Source: a virus
Lineage: Duplodnaviria; Heunggongvirae; Uroviricota; Caudoviricetes
Reading direction: 5' to 3' (one strand)
IMG/VR virus record: IMGVR_UViG_2778261161_000002
DNA: 64,000 bases
Positions within the stretch are counted from its first letter, which is position 1; every line of letters starts with the position of its first letter. The notes beneath the pieces were generated by a model. It was given only the letters and a program-made list of their open reading frames with translations. It did not search any database and was not told where the DNA came from. Of this stretch, positions 3,876 to 59,410 are shown piece by piece. The position numbers and the translations under genes were made by a program.

Positions 3876-4243
3876 TGACCATCTCTGTTTTAGACCGCCT
3901 GAAATTAGGTAAAGAGCTATCAGATCTAATGCAGGCGCAGAAAACTGCGCCAGTATTGCAACGCGTCACCATTGGTAAGCAGATTGTTGATGTGATGCTG
4001 AAATTGGGCCTGGGGACTGCCGCGCAACCGGCAGCGGAACCGCAACAACAGGCTGATCCTGTTGTAGATGAAGTCCCTAAGATAGTGACTGACTTCCTGG
4101 GCGGTGTGTTCACAAAGTCCACACAAATGGAATTTATTGATGCGCTGCGTGGGATCTCAAACTATGTTGGCGAGTTCCTTACGTTGGAGCAGGCTAAAGA
4201 GCAGACCATAAGCTGGGTGAAAGCTAACGGTTATGCCGGGTAA
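3875..4243 (+). CDS. Hypothetical protein, 122 aa (DdrA-like position)
   Basis: ORF track; ATGA overlap with upstream gene. Confidence 0.4.
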   Translation: MTISVLDRLKLGKELSDLMQAQKTAPVLQRVTIGKQIVDVMLKLGLGTAAQPAAEPQQQADPVVDEVPKIVTDFLGGVFTKSTQMEFIDALRGISNYVGEFLTLEQAKEQTISWVKANGYAG

Positions 4244-4249
4244 TCAAAA

Positions 4250-4268
4250 GGGGCTGAAATGCCCCTTT
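4250..4268 (+). terminator. Hairpin AGGGGC-tgaaat-GCCCCT after operon segment
   Basis: Inverted repeat read directly; weak T-run. Confidence 0.4.
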
Positions 4269-4325
4269 CACTTATCTGTTCTCACATAAATCACACACTT
4301 TTTACACTCACAGCTTTCTCTATAG

Positions 4326-5723
4326 TTGGAGTGTATTTTGAACAAATCAGTTACTTCTGCGCTTTCCGAGGCCGCAGATATTAACAGCGTCATTGCTCTG
4401 GTTTCTTCATTAGAGAGGAAAGAAACACACCTGGGGCGAAGTAGCTACGTAGTCACCAGCAAAGGTGCAGAGGTAAAGACGGCTTTTAAGGTCGTTGATG
4501 CCAGCAGTCTGATCATTTCGAACAACCTTGACGGTACGATTAACCCGGCCTTCCCGGAAGAACTCCAACCACGAGATCGTACCCGGCTATCCAGCAAACT
4601 CCAGGTTAACCGTATTGCCTCCAATTTACGCCCGGCACAATTAACGGATTCCGGTATGAGCAGCCACGGAGCGCCTATAGTTGGTCCGGACAACGTTGTT
4701 GAATCCGGCAACGGAAGGAGTATGGGTATCTGGCGTGCCTATGAGCAAGGACAGGCGGATGAGTATCGCCAGTACCTGATCGACCATGCGAAAGAGTTTG
4801 GTCTGAATCCTGACGAAATTTCGCAAATGTCTATGCCCGTACTGGTGCGAGAAAGACTCACAGATGTAGACCGCGCTCAATTTGCCCGCGATTCAAACAT
4901 TAGCGATCTGCAAGAGATGGCAGCAAGTGAAAAAGCGTATGCGGATGCGCAATTTCTCACTGAGAGCGTCATGGCGCTATTTAATCCTTCAGATGATGGA
5001 AATCTGCTGGCGCGGTCCAATGATGCGTTTATTCGTGCGTTTTTGCGCGAAATTGGCGATACAGCGACGGCAGGCTTGCTTACTGCCGATGGGCGTCCCA
5101 CGAAACAGCTTATCGATCGCATCCAGAATGCAATTTTTGCCAAAGCGTACAAGGATGAAAGGCTTGTTCGGCTGGTGTCGGAAGAGCCAGATCCGGAAAT
5201 GCGTAATATCCTGACCGCATTAAATACGGCAGCCAGCGATTTTGCGCAAATGCAGTCGCTGTCTGGCGACGCTCACCATGACGCAGTAACAGGCTTAGTG
5301 GACGGTATAGAGCAGGTTAATGGCCTGGATACACAGGCGATAGCAGCACTCCAGGAAGCAATTAATCTTGTACGTGAAGCCAAAGACAACGGTCAGGCCG
5401 TTGAAGAAGTGATCGCCCAAAGGGGGTTATTCGGCGACAGTACACCGGAAGCTGAGGCATTGGCGCTATTCATCGTAGCAAATAATCGCAGTGCGAAGCG
5501 TATGGGGGCAGCATTCAAAAAAATGGCGCAAAAAATCAACGACGAGCTGACTCATAAACAACAGGCATTGGGCGATATGTTCGGCGGTGGCGATGTTGAT
5601 CTGCGTCGTATTTTGTCTGCTGTATCTGATGAAATTGAGGGTGAATTTGGCGAAGGGAAAGGTCTGAACTTTGCTATGTTTGAAAATTCTACGGATCTAA
5701 ATAATTGCCGTACGGAAAACTAA
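4326..5723 (+). CDS. ParB/sulfiredoxin-like nuclease-domain protein, 465 aa
   Basis: N-terminal region ELQPRDRTRLSSKLQVNRIASNLRPAQL ... VVESGNGRSMGIWRAY resembles ParB N-terminal domain; non-ATG (TTG) start implied by ORF track. Confidence 0.45.
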   Translation: MECILNKSVTSALSEAADINSVIALVSSLERKETHLGRSSYVVTSKGAEVKTAFKVVDASSLIISNNLDGTINPAFPEELQPRDRTRLSSKLQVNRIASNLRPAQLTDSGMSSHGAPIVGPDNVVESGNGRSMGIWRAYEQGQADEYRQYLIDHAKEFGLNPDEISQMSMPVLVRERLTDVDRAQFARDSNISDLQEMAASEKAYADAQFLTESVMALFNPSDDGNLLARSNDAFIRAFLREIGDTATAGLLTADGRPTKQLIDRIQNAIFAKAYKDERLVRLVSEEPDPEMRNILTALNTAASDFAQMQSLSGDAHHDAVTGLVDGIEQVNGLDTQAIAALQEAINLVREAKDNGQAVEEVIAQRGLFGDSTPEAEALALFIVANNRSAKRMGAAFKKMAQKINDELTHKQQALGDMFGGGDVDLRRILSAVSDEIEGEFGEGKGLNFAMFENSTDLNNCRTEN

Positions 5724-5787
5724 ACCAACCGCTGAAATCACATACTGATTATGCTGCCGCAAAACTGGAAACGATTTGCGGTGATTC

Positions 5788-7470
5788 ATGGCAACGAAAG
5801 ACAAAAACAAAGGCTTTCTGTCAGCATTGAAGAAAGCCTTCAACGGTGGTGATGTTACGCCCGCCGATCCGGTCGTTTTTACGAGCGGACATAGTGTCGT
5901 TGCTCGTTCCGGCCTGTCTGCTTTACGTCCAGGCATCCTGGGGAGCAATAGCGATGGCATGACGAGTGAGGCAGATTCAATTTCTTTATCCGCTGAACTG
6001 CCCGGCGAGCGCCTGCAAAAGTACAACATCCTGGAAACGATGGCTAAAAGCCCGACTATCTCGACGGCTTTAAACATTCACATTGCACATGCGCTTGCGC
6101 CTTCAAAAAAAACCGGACAGGCATTCATCCTTTCGCCAAAGGATGGTTCCGATGCCGAGGCAGTAAGTAGATGTGAAGAGTTAACCGCTGATTTGGGGGC
6201 GATGATTAATGACGGACTTCCTTCATGGGCCATGATCATGGCGATCTTTGGGGTGTCTTATGTCCGACCTTATGCTGAACAGGGCAGGGGGATAACAGGC
6301 ATTGAGTCCAGTTATTACACTCTGCCACATTTCGTCCAGGAATTTTATCGCGGTAGCCAGCTGGTTGGATTCAGTGGTGATTACATCCTGGATACGCATA
6401 GTTTGCGCAGAGTAATAACCGAACCGTGGAATCTGGTTTCCATGAAAAATCCCTATTGGACGCCACAGCATAAAGTTATTCCGGTTAGCTACGGCACAAA
6501 AGGGTACTCACTGTTAAGTGAGCAGGCTGATAAGCCGTTAATGGAGACGCAGAATTACGGAACTTCATTCCTGGAATACAGCTATGAACCTTACCTTAAT
6601 TTATGTGCTTCGCTCGCCGCGCTGAAATCAACGCGAAATAATGCAGCCAAAATTGACCGCCTGATTGCTCTTACGACGAACACACTGGACCCGGTTAATG
6701 CGGCGAACTATACGCGTGGCGTCAGCCAGGCATTGAAGCGTCATAGTGACCTGGTGGCGCAAAGGTCGATTAATGCCAACGCTATTCCGACTGTGCTTAA
6801 CCATCTGATACCTGTTATGGGAGACGGGAAGAACGGCATCACCATTGATACGCAATCCATACCCGCAGATATCAGTGGTATCGAAGACGTTATGTTTCAC
6901 CTCCGGCAGCTTGCTGCAAGCCTCGGCATTGACGCAACAATGCTTGGCTGGGCTGATCAGATGAGCGGAGGGCTTGGAGAAGGCGGCTGGCAGCAAACTG
7001 CTATCCAGGCTGCATTGCGTGCGAACTGGATCAGACAGGCCGCCCAGCGAACTATTTATCGGCTTCTGGACATTCACCTCGCTTATAAATACGGCAAGGT
7101 TTACACCGAAACAAACCGCCCTTATGACGTGCAATTCAACTCAATGAACACTGCTATCCAGGAAGAGGAAAACCGGGAACTGGATGCACGCGCCAACTTT
7201 GTTGCTGTCATCTCCCAAATTATGGACCAGATCCAGAACAACCCGAAACTGGCTGGTAGTGACGCGTTTATGCGTTATCTGTTCACTGAGCAGTTGCACA
7301 TCGACGATGACACTCTCAACACCATGATCAAAGAGTTTAAGGCGAATGAATCAGAGCAAAACAACGAGCATGGTATGTACGAATCCGCGCCGTTGTCGTC
7401 CGGTGACGATCCGGAAAACTGGACGCCAGAACAGTTAATAAACTTTGCAAAATTTGTGATGAGCAATTAA
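5788..7470 (+). CDS. Hypothetical large protein, 560 aa (possible virion/morphogenesis-associated)
   Basis: ORF track; no motif I can name with certainty. Confidence 0.45.
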   Translation: MATKDKNKGFLSALKKAFNGGDVTPADPVVFTSGHSVVARSGLSALRPGILGSNSDGMTSEADSISLSAELPGERLQKYNILETMAKSPTISTALNIHIAHALAPSKKTGQAFILSPKDGSDAEAVSRCEELTADLGAMINDGLPSWAMIMAIFGVSYVRPYAEQGRGITGIESSYYTLPHFVQEFYRGSQLVGFSGDYILDTHSLRRVITEPWNLVSMKNPYWTPQHKVIPVSYGTKGYSLLSEQADKPLMETQNYGTSFLEYSYEPYLNLCASLAALKSTRNNAAKIDRLIALTTNTLDPVNAANYTRGVSQALKRHSDLVAQRSINANAIPTVLNHLIPVMGDGKNGITIDTQSIPADISGIEDVMFHLRQLAASLGIDATMLGWADQMSGGLGEGGWQQTAIQAALRANWIRQAAQRTIYRLLDIHLAYKYGKVYTETNRPYDVQFNSMNTAIQEEENRELDARANFVAVISQIMDQIQNNPKLAGSDAFMRYLFTEQLHIDDDTLNTMIKEFKANESEQNNEHGMYESAPLSSGDDPENWTPEQLINFAKFVMSN

Positions 7471-53911: not shown

Positions 53912-54224
53912 TCACATTAGTAGCTTTGTTAACTCCCTCAATACCAGGTAGAAGAGTAACAAAAATATTGACGCAAGTATTTGCGTGGTCAATGAGGCGT
54001 TCATAAACAGATCAATAAGCTTTAACAATTCTAGAATAACATCCATGTCATTCACTCCGTTTAATTTTTAATCTAATGCCAGCAAATGAAGCTGGCCCCC
54101 GCATAAAGATTAATGAAAGTCACTTGTCACCAGTGAGGGGATCCCTGAACTGGTGGCCTGTCTGTTTCTCGCATTTCACACCCTGCATACAGTTTCCCCC
54201 AGGTTATGACTGAGAGGCTTTGTT

Positions 54225-54554
54225 ATGGGCTATAGCAGACTCGACGATAGGTACATTGAAGACGATATTTTTCGTGCGCTGTTTCACCAGGAAATGATTA
54301 AGCGGGTATCGGAGTATCACTCTGATAATTTCCAGTACACGATAAAGATTGATGAAGTATATCGTTCAGACCTTGCAGCCTACAGGGCGTATGGCAATGC
54401 AGATTTGCGCTGGGTATTCCGGGTGCTGGTGGGCCATGAGTCAGAAATGGAAGAAATGCCCGCAGGGACCACGTTAACTCTTCCTGATGTGGCATGGCTG
54501 AGGAACAAGATCCGTGATTACGCAAGCGCGGAACCGGAGATAGAAAATGCCTGA
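54225..54554 (+). CDS. Tail protein X-like (LysM-like) protein
   Basis: YTIKIDEVYRSDLAAYRAYGN ... MPAGTTLTLPDV resembles P2 gpX. Confidence 0.4.
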   Translation: MGYSRLDDRYIEDDIFRALFHQEMIKRVSEYHSDNFQYTIKIDEVYRSDLAAYRAYGNADLRWVFRVLVGHESEMEEMPAGTTLTLPDVAWLRNKIRDYASAEPEIENA

Positions 54555-55740
54555 TTTCCTGAAAAACCAGGACGGGCGCTATATCACTGACGGCCTGTCC
54601 TCTAAGGACTTCACGCGTTTATTCGACCTTATCAGGAAAGAACAAACCCGTAAGCGCCGACAAGCTCACCGGACGCTGACGCCAGGTAGACTGAGGAACA
54701 AATCCGCCGAAGATATTCTCAAGTTAGGGAAGAAAAAAGGCGGCACGTTCTTCACGCGAGACGACCTGAAAGGTTTCGAAAAGCTACGGAGTAAAACGCG
54801 CGAAAAATATGACAGCAAGACGGCTGGCATCACATACGCCCAGCTGGTGGCATCCAGCCAGGCAATCGATATTAAGCGTGCAAATAACGCCGTGGATGAC
54901 GGATCTGGTATCAAAAGAGCTACACCCGTATCTCTTCGCCACAATGTGATTAATATCCGCGTAGAAGCATCGGATATATCCGTCCACCAGCACCATATCG
55001 TCCGGATACGCTTTGAAGAATGGGAGCAGATGGTTGATGACATCGCAGAAGACGATAAATCAGCTCTCAAAATCACTAAATCACTGTGCGCCGGGCGAGT
55101 GTCTTTCGATTGTGACTGTGGTCGTCATCAATACTGGTATCGTTACATCGCCACTGCGGGTAACTTTGCCCTGGCACCGCCAAAAGAATACGCCTATCCA
55201 AAAGTTCGCAACCCGAAGCTGCAAGGCGTCGCCTGTAAACACGTGATCCACTCAATGACGCGGTTACAGTCCGCCAGTTGGCAAATGAGTATTGCTCGTG
55301 CGCTACAAAAGGCTGCAACGCAAATTGCATTTGGTGACGATCGCCGCCGTACAACCAAACACTTCTCAAAAGAAGACGAGAAGGAGTTTAATCGCAATCG
55401 TAGCAGTAAAACGAACGTTGAAGCCGCCAAACGCGAATGGAGGCTCTATCAGAAGCGCCAGGCAGCTTTAAGTACAAAACTGGCAAAGGACAACGGCAAG
55501 ATCGACAAACTACGTGACCAATTGACCAAGGCCAGAAAGTTGTCAGATGCACAGAAAAAACGGGCGGCAGCAAAAGAAGCGGCCTTGCAACGTGAGAAAC
55601 AGAAAAACAAGGAGCTTCAGCAACGCCTTGCCGATCAGTTCGCACTGAAGAAGCAGGCGTTCATTGATGCGCTTGTCATGGCTGGAACACCACCAGCACA
55701 AGCTGAAAAAATGTTCATGGAGTATGTAAAAAAAGCATAA
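54547..55740 (+). CDS. Hypothetical protein with SWIM-type zinc-finger-like motif and K-rich coiled-coil tail
   Basis: FDCDCGRHQYWYRYIATAGNFALAPPKEYAYPKVRNPKLQGVACKHVIH. Confidence 0.45.
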   Translation: MPDFLKNQDGRYITDGLSSKDFTRLFDLIRKEQTRKRRQAHRTLTPGRLRNKSAEDILKLGKKKGGTFFTRDDLKGFEKLRSKTREKYDSKTAGITYAQLVASSQAIDIKRANNAVDDGSGIKRATPVSLRHNVINIRVEASDISVHQHHIVRIRFEEWEQMVDDIAEDDKSALKITKSLCAGRVSFDCDCGRHQYWYRYIATAGNFALAPPKEYAYPKVRNPKLQGVACKHVIHSMTRLQSASWQMSIARALQKAATQIAFGDDRRRTTKHFSKEDEKEFNRNRSSKTNVEAAKREWRLYQKRQAALSTKLAKDNGKIDKLRDQLTKARKLSDAQKKRAAAKEAALQREKQKNKELQQRLADQFALKKQAFIDALVMAGTPPAQAEKMFMEYVKKA

Positions 55741-55773
55741 ACCACACATAGCCTAGCTGCCTAGGCTAGGCTT

Positions 55774-56502
55774 TCATCTTTTTGAAAAATCAATTTCCGT
55801 TTTATCAAATAAATTTGAAATATCAGCAACCAATTTATTAAAATCATGATCGCCATTATAAAGCGAAGTCTTCTTTATTGCCATTACAAAATCATATAAC
55901 TTTTCTGGGGAGTCAATACCAACCCCTCTACTTTTAAAAAGCTCAATGATAACTCCAACATCATCATATAATAACTTTATTGCCGCCATAATCTCTTTTT
56001 GCTGCCTAAGCAATCTCTCAAGTTCATTTTTATTTTCATCCATAATTCTTTTGTTGAATTGTGTATCATTAATACTTTTTATTATTTCAGTCTCTTTTAT
56101 TTGCAACGCCTTTCTTTTATTTTGATCCATGTCGGCATCCAAATACCTTATCTCTGTATATATTTTACTTGTTAGCTTTGATACGCAAAGAGTGACAATC
56201 GGAGCTGCAATTGATGCAATAATTCCAAAAATAAATGGCAAGCAAAAATGATAAAGCCAAGGAGACAAAACGCCTTCATAAACTAGAGGAATCTTACCTC
56301 CAACAAATGTTACAGATAAAGTATATAGGATATCATCCTTTGACTTCATCAATATTAGTATATCTTTCCAATTAATAATTAGAAAAGAAATTAATATATA
56401 TGCAAACACTTTATTAAAAAGCTTGTCTTTTATGGCATCTCCAAAAGATACTTTTATTAGATCATTTTCAGTCAATTTTTCTGTTGATGAATCTGTATTC
56501 AT
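55774..56502 (-). CDS. AT-rich membrane protein (candidate abortive-infection/exclusion effector), 242 aa
   Basis: TM segments then coiled-coil; low GC relative to flanks. Confidence 0.5.
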   Translation of the reverse strand: MNTDSSTEKLTENDLIKVSFGDAIKDKLFNKVFAYILISFLIINWKDILILMKSKDDILYTLSVTFVGGKIPLVYEGVLSPWLYHFCLPFIFGIIASIAAPIVTLCVSKLTSKIYTEIRYLDADMDQNKRKALQIKETEIIKSINDTQFNKRIMDENKNELERLLRQQKEIMAAIKLLYDDVGVIIELFKSRGVGIDSPEKLYDFVMAIKKTSLYNGDHDFNKLVADISNLFDKTEIDFSKR

Positions 56503-56564
56503 ATAAACTACCGTGATTTCTAATATCTATTTTATGAAAATAGCGGTCATCCAGACCGCCAAAC

Positions 56565-56924
56565 TCAAATACCAACCAAGCTTTCAAGAGGAATGCCAAA
56601 CTGGGAATGTAAACGGCGAATCATAGGTAACGTCAAATTTCGTGTCCCATTTAGCACTTCGTAAACACGATTTGACTTACCAATCGCCGGTTCCAGATCC
56701 TTCACGGTCAGCCCTTGCTGTTCCATACGGAATTTAATGGCCTCAATAGGTGATGGTGGCTCAATTGGGTAATGTTTTTTCTCGTACTCCTCAATGAGAA
56801 GACTCATAACCTCAAAGAAATCACCTTCCGGAGTATTCATTTCCGGTTCGTTATCGAACATCGGTTCGACCGCACGCAGTGCGGCCTCATAATCTTGTTC
56901 TGTACGGATAGGTTTAATGTTCAT
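56565..56924 (-). CDS. HigA-like HTH antitoxin/regulator (E. coli YgjM type)
   Basis: C-terminal GLTVKDLEPAIGKSNRVYEVLNGTRNLTLPMIRRLHSQFGIP resembles HigA HTH. Confidence 0.6.
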   Translation of the reverse strand: MNIKPIRTEQDYEAALRAVEPMFDNEPEMNTPEGDFFEVMSLLIEEYEKKHYPIEPPSPIEAIKFRMEQQGLTVKDLEPAIGKSNRVYEVLNGTRNLTLPMIRRLHSQFGIPLESLVGI

Positions 56925-56936
56925 TAATTACAAAGG

Positions 56937-56962
56937 AAAGCCCACTTGCTAAGTGGGCTTTT
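56937..56962. terminator. Hairpin AAGCCCAC-ttgctaa-GTGGGCTT + T-run
   Basis: Between higA and HigA-like gene. Confidence 0.55.
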
Positions 56963-56980
56963 TGTATGTGTTTTACTATA

Positions 56981-57319
56981 TCAGGCTGCTTTTTTATTCA
57001 GGTTCCGCTGAGAAATAAATTTTTCAGCAGTATTGATACGACTTAACTCTTCCTGAACGCGCATATCATTTTCGACTTCCCACAGATCTACTGCGGTCTG
57101 AAGATTAATCCAAAAATCTACAGAAGTATCGAATGCTTTTGCCAGGCGATATGCCATATCCATCGTTAGCTTACGATTATTATTAACAAGAGCACTTACG
57201 GTGTTACGATGAACATGAAGTATTTCTGCTAACTCGTTGATCTTCAGCTCTAACGGCTCCAGGTATTCGTACAGCAGGATATCACCTACGGTCGTCGGTT
57301 TTCTGGTTGCCTGTTTCAT
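56981..57319 (-). CDS. higA: HigA antitoxin (XRE-type HTH)
   Basis: TVGDILLYEYLEPLELKINELAEILHVHRNTVSALVNNNRKLTMDMAYRLAKAFDTSVDFWINLQ. Confidence 0.8.
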   Translation of the reverse strand: MKQATRKPTTVGDILLYEYLEPLELKINELAEILHVHRNTVSALVNNNRKLTMDMAYRLAKAFDTSVDFWINLQTAVDLWEVENDMRVQEELSRINTAEKFISQRNLNKKAA

Positions 57320-57389
57320 TTTTTGCCCTTACTAGCGTGCGTATTAAGTGGACTCTGGTCAGAACCCGGTCCGTAACCGGGTATCTGTT

Positions 57390-57692
57390 TTAGTATTTGT
57401 GAGGGTCGAGATACAAGTCCTCGGCCTTTCCGTTAACCCACTTAAAAATTAACCTATATTGCTTATTCACCCTTACTGATGAATAGCCATTTAGCTTCCC
57501 TGACAGTTCCTCATACCGATTACCTGGTGGTGATCTTAAATCCTTACAGGTAGTTGCGGCATTGATAATGTCCAACTTCCGTGACAATGTCATATGAATA
57601 TCAGGAGGTATCTTTCTATGTGGTGTTGAAAATTCAAAAAAATCATCAAGCCACGCATCCCTGAAATCCTTTATGTTAATTTTTTTGGTCAT
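57390..57692 (-). CDS. higB: HigB toxin (RelE/ParE superfamily)
   Basis: YRLIFKWVNGKAEDLYLDPHKY C-terminus; upstream of higA. Confidence 0.75.
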   Translation of the reverse strand: MTKKINIKDFRDAWLDDFFEFSTPHRKIPPDIHMTLSRKLDIINAATTCKDLRSPPGNRYEELSGKLNGYSSVRVNKQYRLIFKWVNGKAEDLYLDPHKY

Positions 57693-57842
57693 TAGTCATT
57701 TGATCCTCCGTGATGATTACCGAATGCCATAACTATAGCGCACCGTTGCACTGTGCGCAAGTGCATTTTATGAATTCCCCCTCCTTCATCCAAAATCACA
57801 ATCTCCCGAAAATCTTCCTTTCGATACCTGACAGATCGACCT

Positions 57843-58646
57843 TTGAGGATGCTTATGGGCCGTTTTGACGAATGGTTTGCTGACGATGTAAACCTGGCAA
57901 GTAAGGAGTCAGAACATGACTGCACGCAGAGAGAAACGCCAGCGCCGATTGAAGCGAATGCAGGAGGCGCGCCGGAACATGGCAATACCAGTTCGGATTC
58001 ATTCAGCATTCTGGAAGAGCAACCCGCCGCCAAAGCTGATAGCCATGATAATTTTGCTGATAGCAACGGTGGCCTTACTCCGGACGCTGGCGAATCAAAT
58101 ATAGCCACACTTCCACCTTCCCTGGCTGGCAGAGAACCGACTCCACAGCTAAAAGCACGCTATAACGGGCATAAAGCCTTTAACGACCAAATCCGCGCAG
58201 ACTGGATGCTGATTATTGAATCCAGCCCAGACGCGTTTCAGGCTCTCTTATATCGACCAGATGTTGGCACATATGGGGTAGTCAGCGACGAAACAGGAGA
58301 AGAGTCATTCACTGAACTGGATAACAACCAGCGCGAACTGACTTACCAGGAACCTGAAATCGTTTATGTGCTGGATAACCCGGACGGGCGTGACTCTCTC
58401 CATGCGATTGACGCAGACGGTGAGCAGGATGGCTTAACCGATGATGTTCTGATTCTGCGTATTGCAGCAAATAACGTCCCCGTCGGATCAATTCTTGAAT
58501 GGAATGAAGAGATGGTAAACGGCGTAGCCCGCCGCTGGTGGTACGTGCACCGTATTTTTAGCTACGGCACACAGCATGTTGGTTCGCTTTACTACTGCAT
58601 ACCGGCCAGGAATTTTGATACGACTCAAAACGGAGTGATCGAATGA
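57843..58646 (+). CDS. Hypothetical acidic protein (start uncertain)
   Basis: ORF track; N-terminal low-complexity region. Confidence 0.35.
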   Translation: MRMLMGRFDEWFADDVNLASKESEHDCTQRETPAPIEANAGGAPEHGNTSSDSFSILEEQPAAKADSHDNFADSNGGLTPDAGESNIATLPPSLAGREPTPQLKARYNGHKAFNDQIRADWMLIIESSPDAFQALLYRPDVGTYGVVSDETGEESFTELDNNQRELTYQEPEIVYVLDNPDGRDSLHAIDADGEQDGLTDDVLILRIAANNVPVGSILEWNEEMVNGVARRWWYVHRIFSYGTQHVGSLYYCIPARNFDTTQNGVIE

Positions 58647-59410
58647 CTTCAAATAAAACCCTCCTGGCGCGAACAGGTGAATGGCAAACCTCACGCACAG
58701 GAAAATTCCAGACCACGGGCTTTGAAAGCGTGGATAACGCGTTTGCTACGCTAATCAGCAATATCTTTTCTGATATCTTACTGGTGGCCCCCGCGCCGGA
58801 AGAAAAACGCTTTGCGTCATTCCTGAATCGTCCACCAGCAGAGCGTGTCTATGTGGCCCGTTTCGACAATGCGATCGAGTTTCTTAAAGCAGTTCGTCGC
58901 GCAAATGCCGGGCAAGGGAGAAAACCTGAAAACCAGAACATTAACCGGGATGCTCTCCCCCTGGTCAATATCTCACGCACTATGGATATCAATTATATCA
59001 ACGATGATCAGCAGATTGACCGCAAAAAAGTAGCCAGTTTTTGCGAACCGGATACCGGAATGCCTTTAGCAGAACTGGAATACACCCAGGCCATTCTGAC
59101 GTATGACGTTACGTTAATGGCAACTGATAAAGCGACCATGAGTCTGATGTGTAATTCGCTGGGCGCACGGCTTCGCCTGATGACAGGTACACAATTTGAA
59201 GCAACCACTCACCTTGTTCGTGTCCCGGTCCCGCTGATTTGCTCGATACAGGATGCCAAAGAAGTCGGATTTACGGATGTTTCGGCACCAATTGGAGAAG
59301 AGCGTATTTATGCCACACAAGCGCCGATAAGTGTGATTGCAGACGTGATCACAGCATGGGAGTTGGACGCAAAACGTATTATTACCGAAACCTCGATATC
59401 TATGGGGTGA
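58643..59410 (+). CDS. Hypothetical protein (possible virion structural), 255 aa
   Basis: ORF track; ATGA coupling. Confidence 0.45.
   Translation: MTSNKTLLARTGEWQTSRTGKFQTTGFESVDNAFATLISNIFSDILLVAPAPEEKRFASFLNRPPAERVYVARFDNAIEFLKAVRRANAGQGRKPENQNINRDALPLVNISRTMDINYINDDQQIDRKKVASFCEPDTGMPLAELEYTQAILTYDVTLMATDKATMSLMCNSLGARLRLMTGTQFEATTHLVRVPVPLICSIQDAKEVGFTDVSAPIGEERIYATQAPISVIADVITAWELDAKRIITETSISMG

What the first reader, a model, noticed from the sequence alone, without database searches (positions are those of the whole stretch)
55774..57692. AT-rich defence-like islet: higBA plus an extra HigA-like regulator paired with a membrane protein
On the minus strand the order is higB (57692..57390), higA (57319..56981), a terminator, then a second HigA-like HTH gene (E. 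coli YgjM type) with no cognate toxin, followed 62 bp later by an AT-rich 242-aa membrane protein. The HTH-membrane pair resembles a regulator-effector abortive-infection or exclusion module and may be a separate, uncharacterised system.
Basis: partly seen in the sequence, partly recalled or inferred. Interest (0 to 1): 0.6.

Follow-up and report, generated by a model that had tools for sequence, protein, structure and literature searches.

The report
Toxin-antitoxin swap relic plus prophage membrane gene
In a D6-type phage-plasmid of E. coli, the "extra regulator" is an antitoxin left behind when one toxin-antitoxin cassette replaced another. The membrane protein next to it is a separate, highly variable prophage accessory gene of unknown function (possibly phage exclusion) that does not need the regulator.

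Summary
In detail: all four minus-strand genes, the terminator, the 62-bp gap and the AT-rich 242-aa two-TM protein are at the stated coordinates. The window is a D6-like P1-family phage-plasmid (99.7% identical to phage D6 orf70-73). The islet lies between the homologs of P1 tail genes 7 and 25.

Related D6-like elements carry, at the same site, a PF09907 HigB followed 3 nt later by a 119-aa protein 97-98% identical to the "extra" HTH, then a membrane-gene allele. In the window an 861-bp higB-higA-terminator cassette has replaced that toxin together with its promoter, its paired TCCCA-N3-TGGGA palindromes and the antitoxin's ribosome-binding site.

The orphan antitoxin is decaying. It shows relaxed constraint and three independent inactivations, all in toxin-less elements, and the membrane gene stays intact in each case.

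The membrane protein belongs to a small uncharacterised family confined to mobile elements. It usually stands alone (P2-like and Mu-like prophages, a distant P1-like element), with no HTH beside it. It has no Pfam, PADLOC, NCBIfam or structural match.

A phage exclusion or abortive-infection role is inferred, not shown. A recurring higB-higA-membrane trio leaves some room for functional coupling. Interest is moderate to low.

The parts
57390..57692 (-). higB1: RelE-fold HigB/GraT-type toxin (100 aa)
   Evidence: PF05015 at 4e-35; phrog_3066 'toxin of TA system'; PDB 6f8s_B 'Putative Killer protein' at 2.8e-14; D6 orf70.
56981..57319 (-). higA1: cognate antitoxin with an N-terminal HTH (112 aa)
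   Evidence: HTH_3 at residues 16-70; TIGR02607 antidote_HigA 102.5 bits, cut-off 47.7; PDB 2eby (E. coli YbaQ) at 1e-53 and antitoxin chain 6f8s_A.
56932..57792 (-). Replacement cassette of 861 bp: its own promoter region, higB1, higA1 and terminator. It substitutes for the 383 bp (promoter/operators plus PF09907 higB2) found in related elements.
   Evidence: blastn breakpoints against L004-L006: homology covers 59000..57793 and resumes at 56931.
57747..57765 (.). Imperfect palindrome TGCACT-N7-AGTGCA upstream of higB1, overlapping a TTGCGC-17-TATAGT promoter-like site. Candidate HigA1 operator (inferred).
   Evidence: Sequence read directly; hairpin listed. Function inferred.
56937..56961 (-). 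Intrinsic terminator hairpin ending the higB1A1 cassette, 12 nt before the higA2 ATG
   Evidence: 11-13 bp stem; dG -17.9 kcal/mol, z = -5.5, 0 of 200 shuffles fold as well.
56565..56924 (-). higA2: orphaned YgjM-type HigA antitoxin (119 aa), a relic of a displaced higB2-higA2 operon
   Evidence: - Similarity: 5ycl/5ifg E. coli HigA at 8e-8; PADLOC PD-Lambda-2_B N-terminal 119 of 402 positions at 4e-43.
- Partner elsewhere: 97-98% identical to the protein that follows PF09907 HigB by 3 nt in L004-L007 and others.
- Lost signals: the GGAG ribosome-binding site and the operators are absent here.
- Constraint: pN/pS 0.08 as an orphan against 0.01 when paired; three independent inactivations in other elements.
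56541..56561 (-). Conserved GC hairpin plus T-run between higA2 and the membrane gene (terminator or attenuator)
   Evidence: dG -16.6 kcal/mol, z = -4.7; conserved across membrane-gene alleles of both locus layouts.
55774..56502 (-). Mem (D6 orf73): 242-aa protein with two hydrophobic segments and a long helical/coiled-coil C-terminal part. Member of an uncharacterised mobile-element accessory-gene (moron) family.
   Evidence: - Family: phrog_8191, unknown function; no Pfam, PADLOC or NCBIfam hit. 56 representatives among 1.84 billion proteins.
- Composition and structure: hydropathy and 29.2% GC. AF2 model pLDDT 77 with a helix at 81-192; no significant fold match.
- Variation: alleles 34-60% identical between flanks that are 96-100% identical.
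55749..55768 (-). Terminator-like hairpin after the membrane gene (weak)
   Evidence: dG -15.5 kcal/mol but z only -1.7.
54547..55740 (+). Flank: tail protein, homolog of P1 gene 25 (one border of the hot spot)
   Evidence: phrog_1722 at 1e-196; D6 orf74 'similar to P1 gene 25'.
57843..58646 (+). Flank: tail protein, homolog of P1 gene 7 (the other border of the hot spot)
   Evidence: phrog_1906 at 2.5e-114; D6 orf69 'similar to P1 gene 7'.

Best explanation
The islet is not one system. It is three separately exchangeable pieces stacked in the accessory-gene hot spot between tail genes 7 and 25 of D6-like phage-plasmids.

1. higB1-higA1 is a complete GraTA/HigBA-type type II toxin-antitoxin operon with its own promoter and terminator. 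It most likely acts in plasmid addiction (post-segregational killing) of the phage-plasmid. This function is inferred from the family and from the D6 literature.

2. The second HTH gene (higA2) is the antitoxin of a different, E. coli YgjN/YgjM-type higBA operon that used to occupy the site. An 861-bp cassette replaced its toxin, its promoter, its two TCCCA-N3-TGGGA operator-like palindromes and its ribosome-binding site, ending 7 nt before the higA2 start codon. What remains is an orphan. It is probably poorly expressed, lying behind a strong terminator without a Shine-Dalgarno sequence. It is under relaxed constraint and is lost in most sister plasmids.

3. The membrane gene is an autonomous accessory gene. 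Its family has a conserved N-terminal membrane domain (two hydrophobic helices around an invariant N-W motif). Its cytoplasmic coiled-coil C-terminal half diverges fast, and alleles are swapped as single-gene cassettes.

The most likely role of the membrane protein is an oligomeric inner-membrane protein made by the lysogen that interferes with incoming phages, by superinfection exclusion or membrane-acting abortive infection. That role is inferred from context and architecture only.
For: Shown:
- Identity of the element and site.
- The same site in L004-7, L012, L028-30, L032 and L034 holds PF09907 HigB, then the 119-aa protein (97-98% identical to higA2), then a Mem allele.
- Exact DNA breakpoints lie at 57792/56932.
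- The identical Mem allele P0013 occurs with either toxin cassette.
- The palindrome pair is present in 10 of 10 loci that keep higB2, 0 of 41 other loci, and has 0 exact copies in the 64-kb window.
- The GGAG site before higA2 lies inside higB2 and is lost here.
- higA2 pN/pS is 0.01 when paired and 0.08 when orphaned. Amino-acid changes beyond the A107S polymorphism shared by both layouts, and all three inactivations (deletion, frameshift in L031, Q69* in L027), occur only in toxin-less elements, and Mem stays intact there.
- Of 95 E. coli plasmids with higA2 sequence, 44 are full length, 19 of these have higB2, and 51 are truncated.
- Mem relatives stand alone in P2-like prophages (Klebsiella, Rahnella), a Mu-like Pantoea prophage, and a distant P1/D6-like element at the same gene-7/gene-25 junction. 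Others sit beside a STAND/KAP NTPase or a CdiA-like toxin with Imm74.
- Mem is under purifying selection within allele classes (dN/dS 0.1-0.25). Median identity is 55% for the N-terminal part and 25% for the C-terminal part.
- L051 and L033 share 96-98% identical flanking DNA and 97-100% identical HigB/HigA proteins but only 49% identical Mem.

From the literature: D6 higBA is regarded as a post-segregational killing system (PMC6799933).
Against: - No functional data exist for any of the four genes.
- A defence or exclusion role for Mem rests on guilt by association: no PADLOC, Pfam or structural match.
- Orphan higA2 is still intact in about 25 E. coli plasmids and pN/pS is still below 1. Some retained use, such as neutralising HigB2 of competing plasmids, is not excluded.
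- The trio higB-higA-Mem recurs with three different YgjN/M-type cassettes. It also moved as a unit into Klebsiella IncFIB plasmids. That could mean coupling rather than mere co-residence.
- Mem's own promoter could not be identified with confidence in the 62-bp spacer.
Confidence: 0.7

Rival explanations
1. One reading: the second HTH protein is the dedicated transcriptional regulator (or antitoxin-like neutraliser) of the membrane protein, and the two form a self-contained abortive-infection or exclusion module.
For: The two genes are adjacent and co-oriented, 62 bp apart. The pair higA2+Mem is kept together in 21 of the sampled D6-like loci.
Against: - higA2 is 3 nt downstream of, and translationally coupled to, a PF09907 toxin wherever that toxin is present.
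- A conserved terminator-like hairpin separates higA2 from Mem.
- The operator-like palindromes occur only upstream of higB2 and none lies near Mem.
- Mem is intact where higA2 is deleted (51 E. coli plasmids), frameshifted (L031) or stopped (L027).
- Mem relatives usually have no HTH neighbour.
Confidence: 0.07
2. A three-gene system. YgjN/YgjM-type higB-higA plus Mem is a functional tripartite cassette, for example with the TA operon controlling or triggering a membrane effector. In the window it is a degraded version whose toxin was swapped.
For: - The trio occurs with three different HigBA versions: HigB2A2 in E. coli D6-likes; a K-12-like 103/139-aa pair in L033 and L051; a 54%-identical pair in the unrelated phage-plasmid L044, where Mem is only 25-30% identical.
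- In Klebsiella IncFIB plasmids the segment shared with L033 (96% DNA identity) spans exactly promoter, higB, higA and Mem.
- Precedents for three-component TA-derived defence exist: PD-lambda-2 and CmdTAC (PMC9519451).
Against: - Mem stands alone in most independent lineages sampled, including at the very same gene-7/gene-25 junction in L047 and L048.
- Mem and higBA are exchanged independently of each other.
- A terminator-like hairpin lies between higA2 and Mem.
- In the Klebsiella plasmid examined (L050) Mem is split by IS903B while higBA stays intact. All Klebsiella hits listed match only the N-terminal part of Mem.
- TA modules and accessory genes commonly share hot spots.
Confidence: 0.18
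3. Anti-addiction module. The orphan higA2 is retained because it neutralises HigB2 released when this plasmid displaces an incompatible D6-like plasmid carrying higB2A2. The orphan would then be a weapon in plasmid-plasmid competition rather than a relic.
For: - Both plasmid types co-circulate in E. coli: 19 with higB2 against about 76 without.
- Orphan HigA2 is 97-98% identical to the paired antitoxin, so cross-neutralisation is plausible.
- About 25 orphan copies are still intact, with pN/pS 0.08.
- The anti-addiction concept itself is from established TA literature (own knowledge: chromosomal ccd of Erwinia against F ccd).
Against: - There is no promoter or Shine-Dalgarno sequence, and a strong terminator sits immediately upstream.
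- Amino-acid changes accumulate and there are three independent knock-outs, the commonest variant being a deletion.
- Most of the synonymous divergence probably predates orphaning, so the low pN/pS is weak evidence of current constraint.
Confidence: 0.12
4. Mem is not a defence gene. It serves the phage's own cycle (for example lysis timing, membrane anchoring during tail or baseplate assembly, or DNA entry), or it is a host-directed lysogenic-conversion factor unrelated to phages.
For: It lies inside tail/baseplate gene clusters in P1/D6-like and P2-like elements. There is no match to any known defence protein.
Against: - It is transcribed opposite to the flanking late genes.
- It is AT-rich and foreign.
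- Among 50,697 sequenced phage genome records it is found only in the two D6 records.
- It is truncated in some elements (L026, L032).
- Some relatives are chromosomal, beside STAND NTPase or CdiA/immunity genes.
- Alleles are swapped between otherwise near-identical phages.

None of this fits a core morphogenetic role.
Confidence: 0.12

Closest known systems
HigBA / GraTA type II toxin-antitoxin systems (Proteus Rts1 HigBA; Pseudomonas putida GraTA, PDB 6f8s; E. coli YbaQ, PDB 2eby)
   Same: higB1 and higA1 show toxin-first gene order, a PF05015 toxin, and a TIGR02607 antitoxin with an N-terminal HTH. A palindrome overlaps the promoter. They sit on a plasmid-like replicon, where such pairs act in post-segregational killing.
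   Different: Nothing unusual was found. Activity was not tested. A 7-codon ORF with the better-placed Shine-Dalgarno sequence overlaps the toxin start, a detail not followed up.
E. coli K-12 HigB-HigA (YgjN-YgjM; PDB 5ycl, 5ifg)
   Same: higA2 aligns over its whole length with K-12 HigA, with the HTH at the C-terminus. In sister elements it follows a PF09907 HigB_toxin by 3 nt, like ygjN-ygjM. L033, L051 and L050 carry an even closer 103/139-aa pair.
   Different: In the window the toxin, promoter, operators and ribosome-binding site are gone. At 119 aa, higA2 is also shorter than the 138-aa K-12 protein, lacking about 20 N-terminal residues.
PD-lambda-2 (Vassallo et al. 2022, PMC9519451): HigB-like A, HigA-like-peptidase fusion B, and a third component C
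   Same: higA2 matches the N-terminal 119 positions of the PADLOC PD-Lambda-2_B profile at 4e-43. The ancestral locus is also a HigB, HigA-like, third-gene trio.
   Different: higA2 has no peptidase domain (119 aa against a 402-position profile). higB1 matches no PADLOC model. Mem does not match PD-Lambda-2_C or any PADLOC model. In PD-lambda-2 the toxic part is B and A is its neutraliser; nothing suggests that here.
Orphan or 'anti-addiction' antitoxins left by TA cassette turnover (own knowledge of the TA literature)
   Same: An intact antitoxin gene without its toxin sits next to a different, complete TA pair. Sister elements still hold the cognate toxin.
   Different: Here the replacement event can be mapped to the base pair, and the orphan can be seen decaying in three independent ways. 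Whether it still acts is unknown.
Prophage-encoded membrane exclusion or abortive-infection proteins (lambda RexB, lambda/P22 SieB, T4 Imm) and accessory-gene hot spots of P2-like phages (Rousset et al. 2022, PMC9122126)
   Same: Mem is a small inner-membrane protein encoded on the strand opposite the late genes, in a variable hot spot of a temperate phage. It is AT-rich, and alleles are swapped between near-identical phages. Relatives occupy accessory-gene sites of P2-like prophages.
   Different: There is no detectable sequence relationship: hhalign probability is below 1% against lambda SieB and RexB. There is no structural match. The architecture of two TM segments plus a roughly 135-residue coiled-coil tail is not that of those proteins. 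No phenotype is known.

Membership tests
HigB/RelE-fold toxin (PF05015) with HigA antitoxin: applies to higB1/higA1 | Toxin matches the HigB-like family above the curated threshold | tested here: met
   PF05015 at 120.5 bits, cut-off 27; PDB 6f8s_B at 2.8e-14.
HigB/RelE-fold toxin (PF05015) with HigA antitoxin: applies to higB1/higA1 | Toxin gene upstream of an HTH antitoxin gene in one operon (the reversed order typical of HigBA) | tested here: met
   higB1 at 57692..57390 is followed 70 nt later by higA1 at 57319..56981, then a terminator. higA1 matches TIGR02607 at 102.5 bits, cut-off 47.7.
HigB/RelE-fold toxin (PF05015) with HigA antitoxin: applies to higB1/higA1 | Ribosome-dependent mRNA cleavage neutralised by the antitoxin; autoregulation | not testable with these tools
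   Needs expression and toxicity assays and EMSA on the 57747-57765 palindrome.
E. coli K-12-type HigA (YgjM) antitoxin: applies to higA2 | Full-length similarity to YgjM-type HigA, with a C-terminal HTH | tested here: met
   5ycl_A and 5ifg_B at 8e-8, query 6-112 aligned to chain residues 21-129; HTH_3 at residues 63-115.
E. coli K-12-type HigA (YgjM) antitoxin: applies to higA2 | Cognate PF09907 HigB toxin immediately upstream | tested here: not met
   Absent from the window: a terminator lies 12 nt upstream. The toxin is present in the orthologous position in 10 of 10 sampled loci of the toxin-bearing layout and in 19 E. coli plasmids. The gene is therefore an orphan of this family, not part of a functioning pair here.
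E. coli K-12-type HigA (YgjM) antitoxin: applies to higA2 | Operator sites for autoregulation near the gene | tested here: not met
   The TCCCA-N3-TGGGA pair occurs only upstream of higB2 (10 loci). There are 0 exact copies in the window, and the two 1-mismatch hits are at chance level. Assigning these palindromes as the operator is itself an inference.
PD-lambda-2 defence system | B component is a HigA-like HTH fused to a C-terminal peptidase domain | tested here: not met
   higA2 covers only positions 1-119 of the 402-position PD-Lambda-2_B profile, and the ORF ends at 119 aa.
PD-lambda-2 defence system | A (HigB-like) and C components recognisable next to B | tested here: not met
   higB1 and Mem have no PADLOC hit at E <= 1. 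The 33 Mem-family members give only coiled-coil noise such as LmuB and JetC.
   Mem relatives have no HTH neighbour in P2-like prophages, Pantoea, Buttiauxella, Kosakonia and the P1-like elements L047 and L048.
   higA2 is truncated in 51 E. coli plasmids, frameshifted in L031 and carries a nonsense codon in L027. Mem is full length in every sampled locus of these three kinds.
Known prophage membrane exclusion proteins (lambda SieB, lambda RexB) | Detectable sequence or profile homology | tested here: not met
   hhalign of the 33-sequence Mem profile gives probability 0.2% against SieB and 0.35% against RexB.
Two-TM pore-loop cation channels (NaK/KcsA/MthK-like) | Significant structural similarity of the TM1, short helix, loop, TM2 unit, and a conserved filter motif | tested here: not met
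   These are the top Foldseek PDB hits, but with E >= 2.3, probability <= 0.11 and TM-score <= 0.28. The 'FVGG' stretch is not conserved in the wider family. This is a lead only.
Anti-phage defence / superinfection exclusion function for Mem | Protection against phage infection when expressed | not testable with these tools
   Only contextual support is available: a hot-spot accessory gene, allele turnover, and neighbours such as a STAND NTPase and CdiA/Imm74.

The most novel reading that the evidence does not exclude
YgjN/YgjM-type higB-higA plus the membrane gene is a mobile three-gene cassette in which the TA pair gates or triggers a hypervariable membrane effector. This would be a tripartite TA-derived defence system, as PD-lambda-2 and CmdTAC are. 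The window would show it mid-turnover: toxin replaced, antitoxin orphaned, effector retained. The cassette recurs with three HigBA versions, in an unrelated phage-plasmid, and as an exactly trio-sized transfer into Klebsiella IncFIB plasmids.
Probability: 0.15. Interest if true: 0.6.

Novelty: new member of a known kind. Interest (0 to 1): 0.33.

Why it matters
D6-like phage-plasmids are widespread in pathogenic E. coli, Shigella and Salmonella. Current tools report them as almost devoid of recognised defence systems (bioRxiv 10.1101/2025.09.12.675607).

This locus is a fixed hot spot where toxin-antitoxin cassettes and alleles of an uncharacterised membrane protein are exchanged independently. 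That gives a clean natural series for testing three questions:
- What the membrane family does.
- Whether orphan antitoxins matter in competition between incompatible plasmids.
- Whether TA modules and neighbouring accessory genes are functionally coupled.

The practical correction for annotation is also useful. The 'helix-turn-helix domain-containing protein' next to higBA in these plasmids is an orphan or pseudogenised HigA, not a regulator of the downstream gene.

Tried and rejected
1. Domain and profile searches of Mem against Pfam, PADLOC and NCBIfam found nothing. PHROGs matched only families of unknown function (phrog_8191, phrog_13369). Scanning all 33 family members gave only coiled-coil noise (LmuB, JetC, FlaC, and TraS at 0.03).

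2. The PDB sequence search for Mem gave no hit below E = 0.15.

4. A pore-loop channel resemblance was considered. It was rejected as evidence (E >= 2.3, motif not conserved).

5. hhalign against lambda SieB and RexB showed no relationship.

6. A genome-contig scan with the close-allele alignment found nothing. Alignments A4 and A6 were too diverse for the search for related loci.

7. The 1-mismatch operator-like site at 56594-56606 inside higA2 was considered as an internal operator for Mem. It was rejected because it is at chance level and not conserved in L004.

8. Sigma-70 promoter scanning of the islet gave 9 sites against 7.2 expected, so it is uninformative. No convincing Mem promoter was found in the 62-bp spacer.

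9. The D6 genome paper (Gilcrease & Casjens 2018) could not be read from the library.


Full report
**What is there**

- higB1 (57692..57390, 100 aa) matches PF05015 at 4e-35.
- higA1 (57319..56981, 112 aa) has an N-terminal HTH_3. It matches TIGR02607 antidote_HigA at 102.5 bits against a cut-off of 47.7.
- A 119-aa protein (56924..56565) has a C-terminal HTH_3.
- After a 62-bp gap comes a 242-aa protein (56502..55774) with no Pfam or NCBIfam family.

A strong hairpin at 56961..56937 (dG -17.9 kcal/mol, z = -5.5) sits between higA1 and the 119-aa gene. The 119-aa protein aligns over its whole length with the solved E. coli K-12 HigA/YgjM structures (5ycl, 5ifg; E = 8e-8).

The 242-aa protein has two hydrophobic segments (about residues 32-52 and 82-107) and a long helical C-terminal part. 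Its gene is 29.2% GC in a 47.5% GC window.

**Where it is**

The region is 99.7% identical to Escherichia phage D6, where the genes are annotated as orf70-73: a RelE-family toxin, two 'HigA family' antitoxins and a hypothetical protein. It lies between the homologs of P1 tail genes 7 and 25.

In complete E. coli genomes it is found on 102 plasmids and never on a chromosome. The window is thus a D6-like P1-family phage-plasmid. The islet is an opposite-strand insertion in the tail-gene cluster.

**The extra HTH gene is an orphaned antitoxin**

I looked up where diverged homologs of the membrane protein are encoded. This showed sister D6-like elements with a different layout at the same site. 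A 100-aa PF09907 HigB_toxin comes first. Three nucleotides later comes a 119-aa protein, and then a membrane-gene allele. That 119-aa protein is 97-98% identical to the window's second HTH protein.

DNA comparison places the difference precisely. Homology with these elements runs from the gene-7 side down to window 57793, breaks, and resumes at 56931, 7 nt before the higA2 start codon. So 861 bp have replaced 383 bp. The incoming piece holds its own promoter region, higB1, higA1 and the terminator. The lost piece held the promoter and higB2.

Three things went with the lost segment:
- Two palindromes, TCCCA-N3-TGGGA, that bracket the -35/-10 region upstream of higB2. They occur in all 10 sampled loci that keep higB2, in none of the other 41 loci, and have no exact copy anywhere in the 64-kb window.
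- The promoter itself.
- The GGAG ribosome-binding site of higA2, which lies inside the 3' end of higB2.

The identical membrane allele (P0013) is found with either toxin cassette. The swap therefore involved the toxin cassette alone.

**The orphan is decaying**

In the 10 sampled loci where higA2 still follows higB2, it is under very strong constraint: pN/pS 0.01 at pS 0.155, with one shared A107S polymorphism. In toxin-less loci pN/pS is 0.08, and further replacements appear (C41S, N2D, M29I, V117I, V119I).

All three inactivations I found are in toxin-less elements:
- a deletion/replacement of window 56742..56434, which removes the HTH domain;
- a frameshift in L031;
- Q69* plus five replacements in L027.

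Among complete E. coli genomes, 95 plasmids carry higA2 sequence. Of these, 44 are full length, 19 also have higB2, and 51 are the truncated form. The membrane gene is full length in every sampled locus with a damaged higA2.

A dedicated repressor or neutraliser of a toxic membrane effector would not be expected to be lost this freely while its target stays intact.

**The membrane protein is an autonomous, hypervariable accessory gene**

An exhaustive profile search of 1.84 billion representative proteins found only 56 family representatives. None of 33 members has a real Pfam or PADLOC match.

Within D6-like elements the gene is always between genes 7 and 25. Alleles are only 34-60% identical, while the flanking tail genes are 96-100% identical and higA2 is 97-98% identical. 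Median identity is 55% for the N-terminal membrane part, which carries an invariant N44-W45 motif, P89 and P101. It is 25% for the C-terminal part.

Within allele classes dN/dS is 0.1-0.25, so the gene is functional. One class reaches about 1.0-1.2 in the C-terminal half.

L051 and L033 share 96-98% identical flanking DNA and 97-100% identical HigB/HigA proteins, but Mem is only 49% identical. The breakpoints lie at the end of higA and the end of the membrane gene. Alleles are therefore exchanged as single-gene cassettes.

More distant relatives (17-30% identity) stand alone, on the strand opposite to late genes, in several settings:
- P2-like prophages of Klebsiella and Rahnella, between gpV and gpS; a further P2-like prophage carries one between ogr and gpD;
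- a Mu-like Pantoea prophage;
- beside a 985-aa STAND/KAP NTPase in Buttiauxella;
- beside a CdiA-like toxin and Imm74 in Kosakonia;
- most tellingly, alone at the same gene-7/gene-25 junction in a more distant P1/D6-like lineage (gp25 73% identical), with no toxin-antitoxin genes at all.

Among 50,697 sequenced phage genome records only the two D6 records carry the family.

**What the membrane protein might do**

The AlphaFold model (pLDDT 77, pTM 0.37) shows an N-terminal helix, a kinked first hydrophobic helix, a short helix and loop, and a second hydrophobic helix. The second helix continues as one helix of about 110 residues into the cytoplasm, followed by a small helical bundle.

There is no significant structural neighbour:
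- Foldseek against PDB gives E >= 2.3.
- Foldseek against BFVD gives E >= 0.78.

The top but non-significant PDB hits are all two-TM pore-loop channels. I record this as a lead only. Profile comparison with lambda SieB and RexB is negative.

Three lines of context point the same way: the position in accessory-gene hot spots, the foreign composition and allele turnover, and the conflict-system neighbours of some relatives. From these I infer an oligomeric inner-membrane protein made in the lysogen that acts against incoming phages, by exclusion or membrane-acting abortive infection. This is inference, and I put it at about 40-45%.

A higB-higA-membrane trio recurs.
- E. coli D6-likes have HigB2A2 plus Mem.
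- L033 and L051 have a K-12-like 103/139-aa HigBA plus Mem.
- The unrelated phage-plasmid L044 has a 54%-identical HigBA plus a 25-30%-identical Mem. It shares no other protein with the window.
- 55 Klebsiella plasmids match Mem, the listed ones only over its N-terminal part. The one examined (L050, IncFIB) carries a segment 96% identical to L033 that spans exactly promoter, higB, higA and Mem. There Mem is split by IS903B.

This could mean functional coupling, as in the three-component TA-derived systems PD-lambda-2 and CmdTAC (PMC9519451). It could also simply reflect co-residence in a hot spot.

Several points weigh against coupling. Stand-alone Mem genes are frequent. The two parts are exchanged independently. 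A conserved terminator-like hairpin lies between higA2 and Mem. I rate coupling at about 0.15-0.2.

The PADLOC match of higA2 to PD-Lambda-2_B (4e-43) covers only that protein's HigA-like N-terminal domain. The defining peptidase domain is absent, so this is not a PD-lambda-2 system.

**Verdict**

- higB1/higA1 is an ordinary GraTA/HigBA-type addiction module, already regarded as such in the D6 literature (PMC6799933).
- The second HTH gene is a mappable relic of toxin-antitoxin cassette replacement.
- The membrane gene is an uncharacterised but autonomous prophage accessory gene.

The finding is real and tidy, but it is mostly explained by known processes. The residual novelty lies in the unknown function of the membrane family and in the possible trio.

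Noticed in passing
window 57676-57709 (minus strand): The only good Shine-Dalgarno sequence upstream of higB1 (GGAGG, 57709-57705) is 5 nt from an ATG at 57699. That ATG opens a 7-codon ORF (MTNDQKN*) overlapping the annotated higB1 start at 57692, which is 12 nt from the SD. This may be a leader that damps toxin translation.
   Followed up: no
L011 5472-6043; also L024 and L031 (D6-like loci): Some D6-like elements carry a second, different PF05015 HigB-like (93 aa) plus HTH_3 (93 aa) pair between the gene-26 and mat homologs. The window has only small ORFs at the equivalent place (about 53912-54213). This is a second accessory-gene/TA hot spot in the same tail region.
   Followed up: partly
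L050 (K. pneumoniae plasmid pQDE2-C, NZ_MK773537.1) 3977-6767: The large Klebsiella IncFIB plasmid examined (L050) carries promoter, higB, higA and the membrane gene at 96% DNA identity to the D6-like element L033. It is flanked by IS66, IS5 and IS903B elements, and the membrane gene is split by IS903B. 55 Klebsiella plasmid records match the membrane protein in all. This looks like an exactly trio-sized transfer between a phage-plasmid and conventional plasmids.
   Followed up: partly
window 56541-56561 and the same position in L004-L034: A GC-rich hairpin plus T-run directly after the higA2 stop codon is conserved across otherwise diverged membrane-gene alleles. It is present even where higB2 and higA2 are intact, so the TA operon and the membrane gene look transcriptionally insulated.
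   Followed up: partly
Membrane-gene alleles in L006, L007, L010 and L027: In this allele group the C-terminal half has dN/dS of about 1.0-1.2 in three of the five pairs compared (0.67-0.68 in the other two), while the N-terminal half has 0.11-0.13. Other allele groups show 0.1-0.25 in both halves. This may be local diversifying or relaxed selection.
   Followed up: partly
L026 3859-4368 and L032 4001-4420: Two D6-like elements have truncated membrane genes (about 193 aa counted from the conserved start in L026, 147 aa in L032). The gene is therefore occasionally lost as well.
   Followed up: no
L045 4980-7937 (Buttiauxella) and L046 4923-8620 (Kosakonia): Chromosomal relatives of the membrane protein sit beside a 985-aa STAND/KAP-type NTPase with an HSDR_N-like N-terminus. 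In Kosakonia the neighbours are a 1151-aa CdiA-like protein and an Imm74 immunity gene. Both are conflict-system neighbourhoods.
   Followed up: partly
L036 6833-7576 (Klebsiella P2-like prophage): A 247-aa ORF with a faint HNH_5 match lies next to the stand-alone membrane-family gene, between gpV and gpS. It may be another accessory gene in the same P2 hot spot.
   Followed up: no
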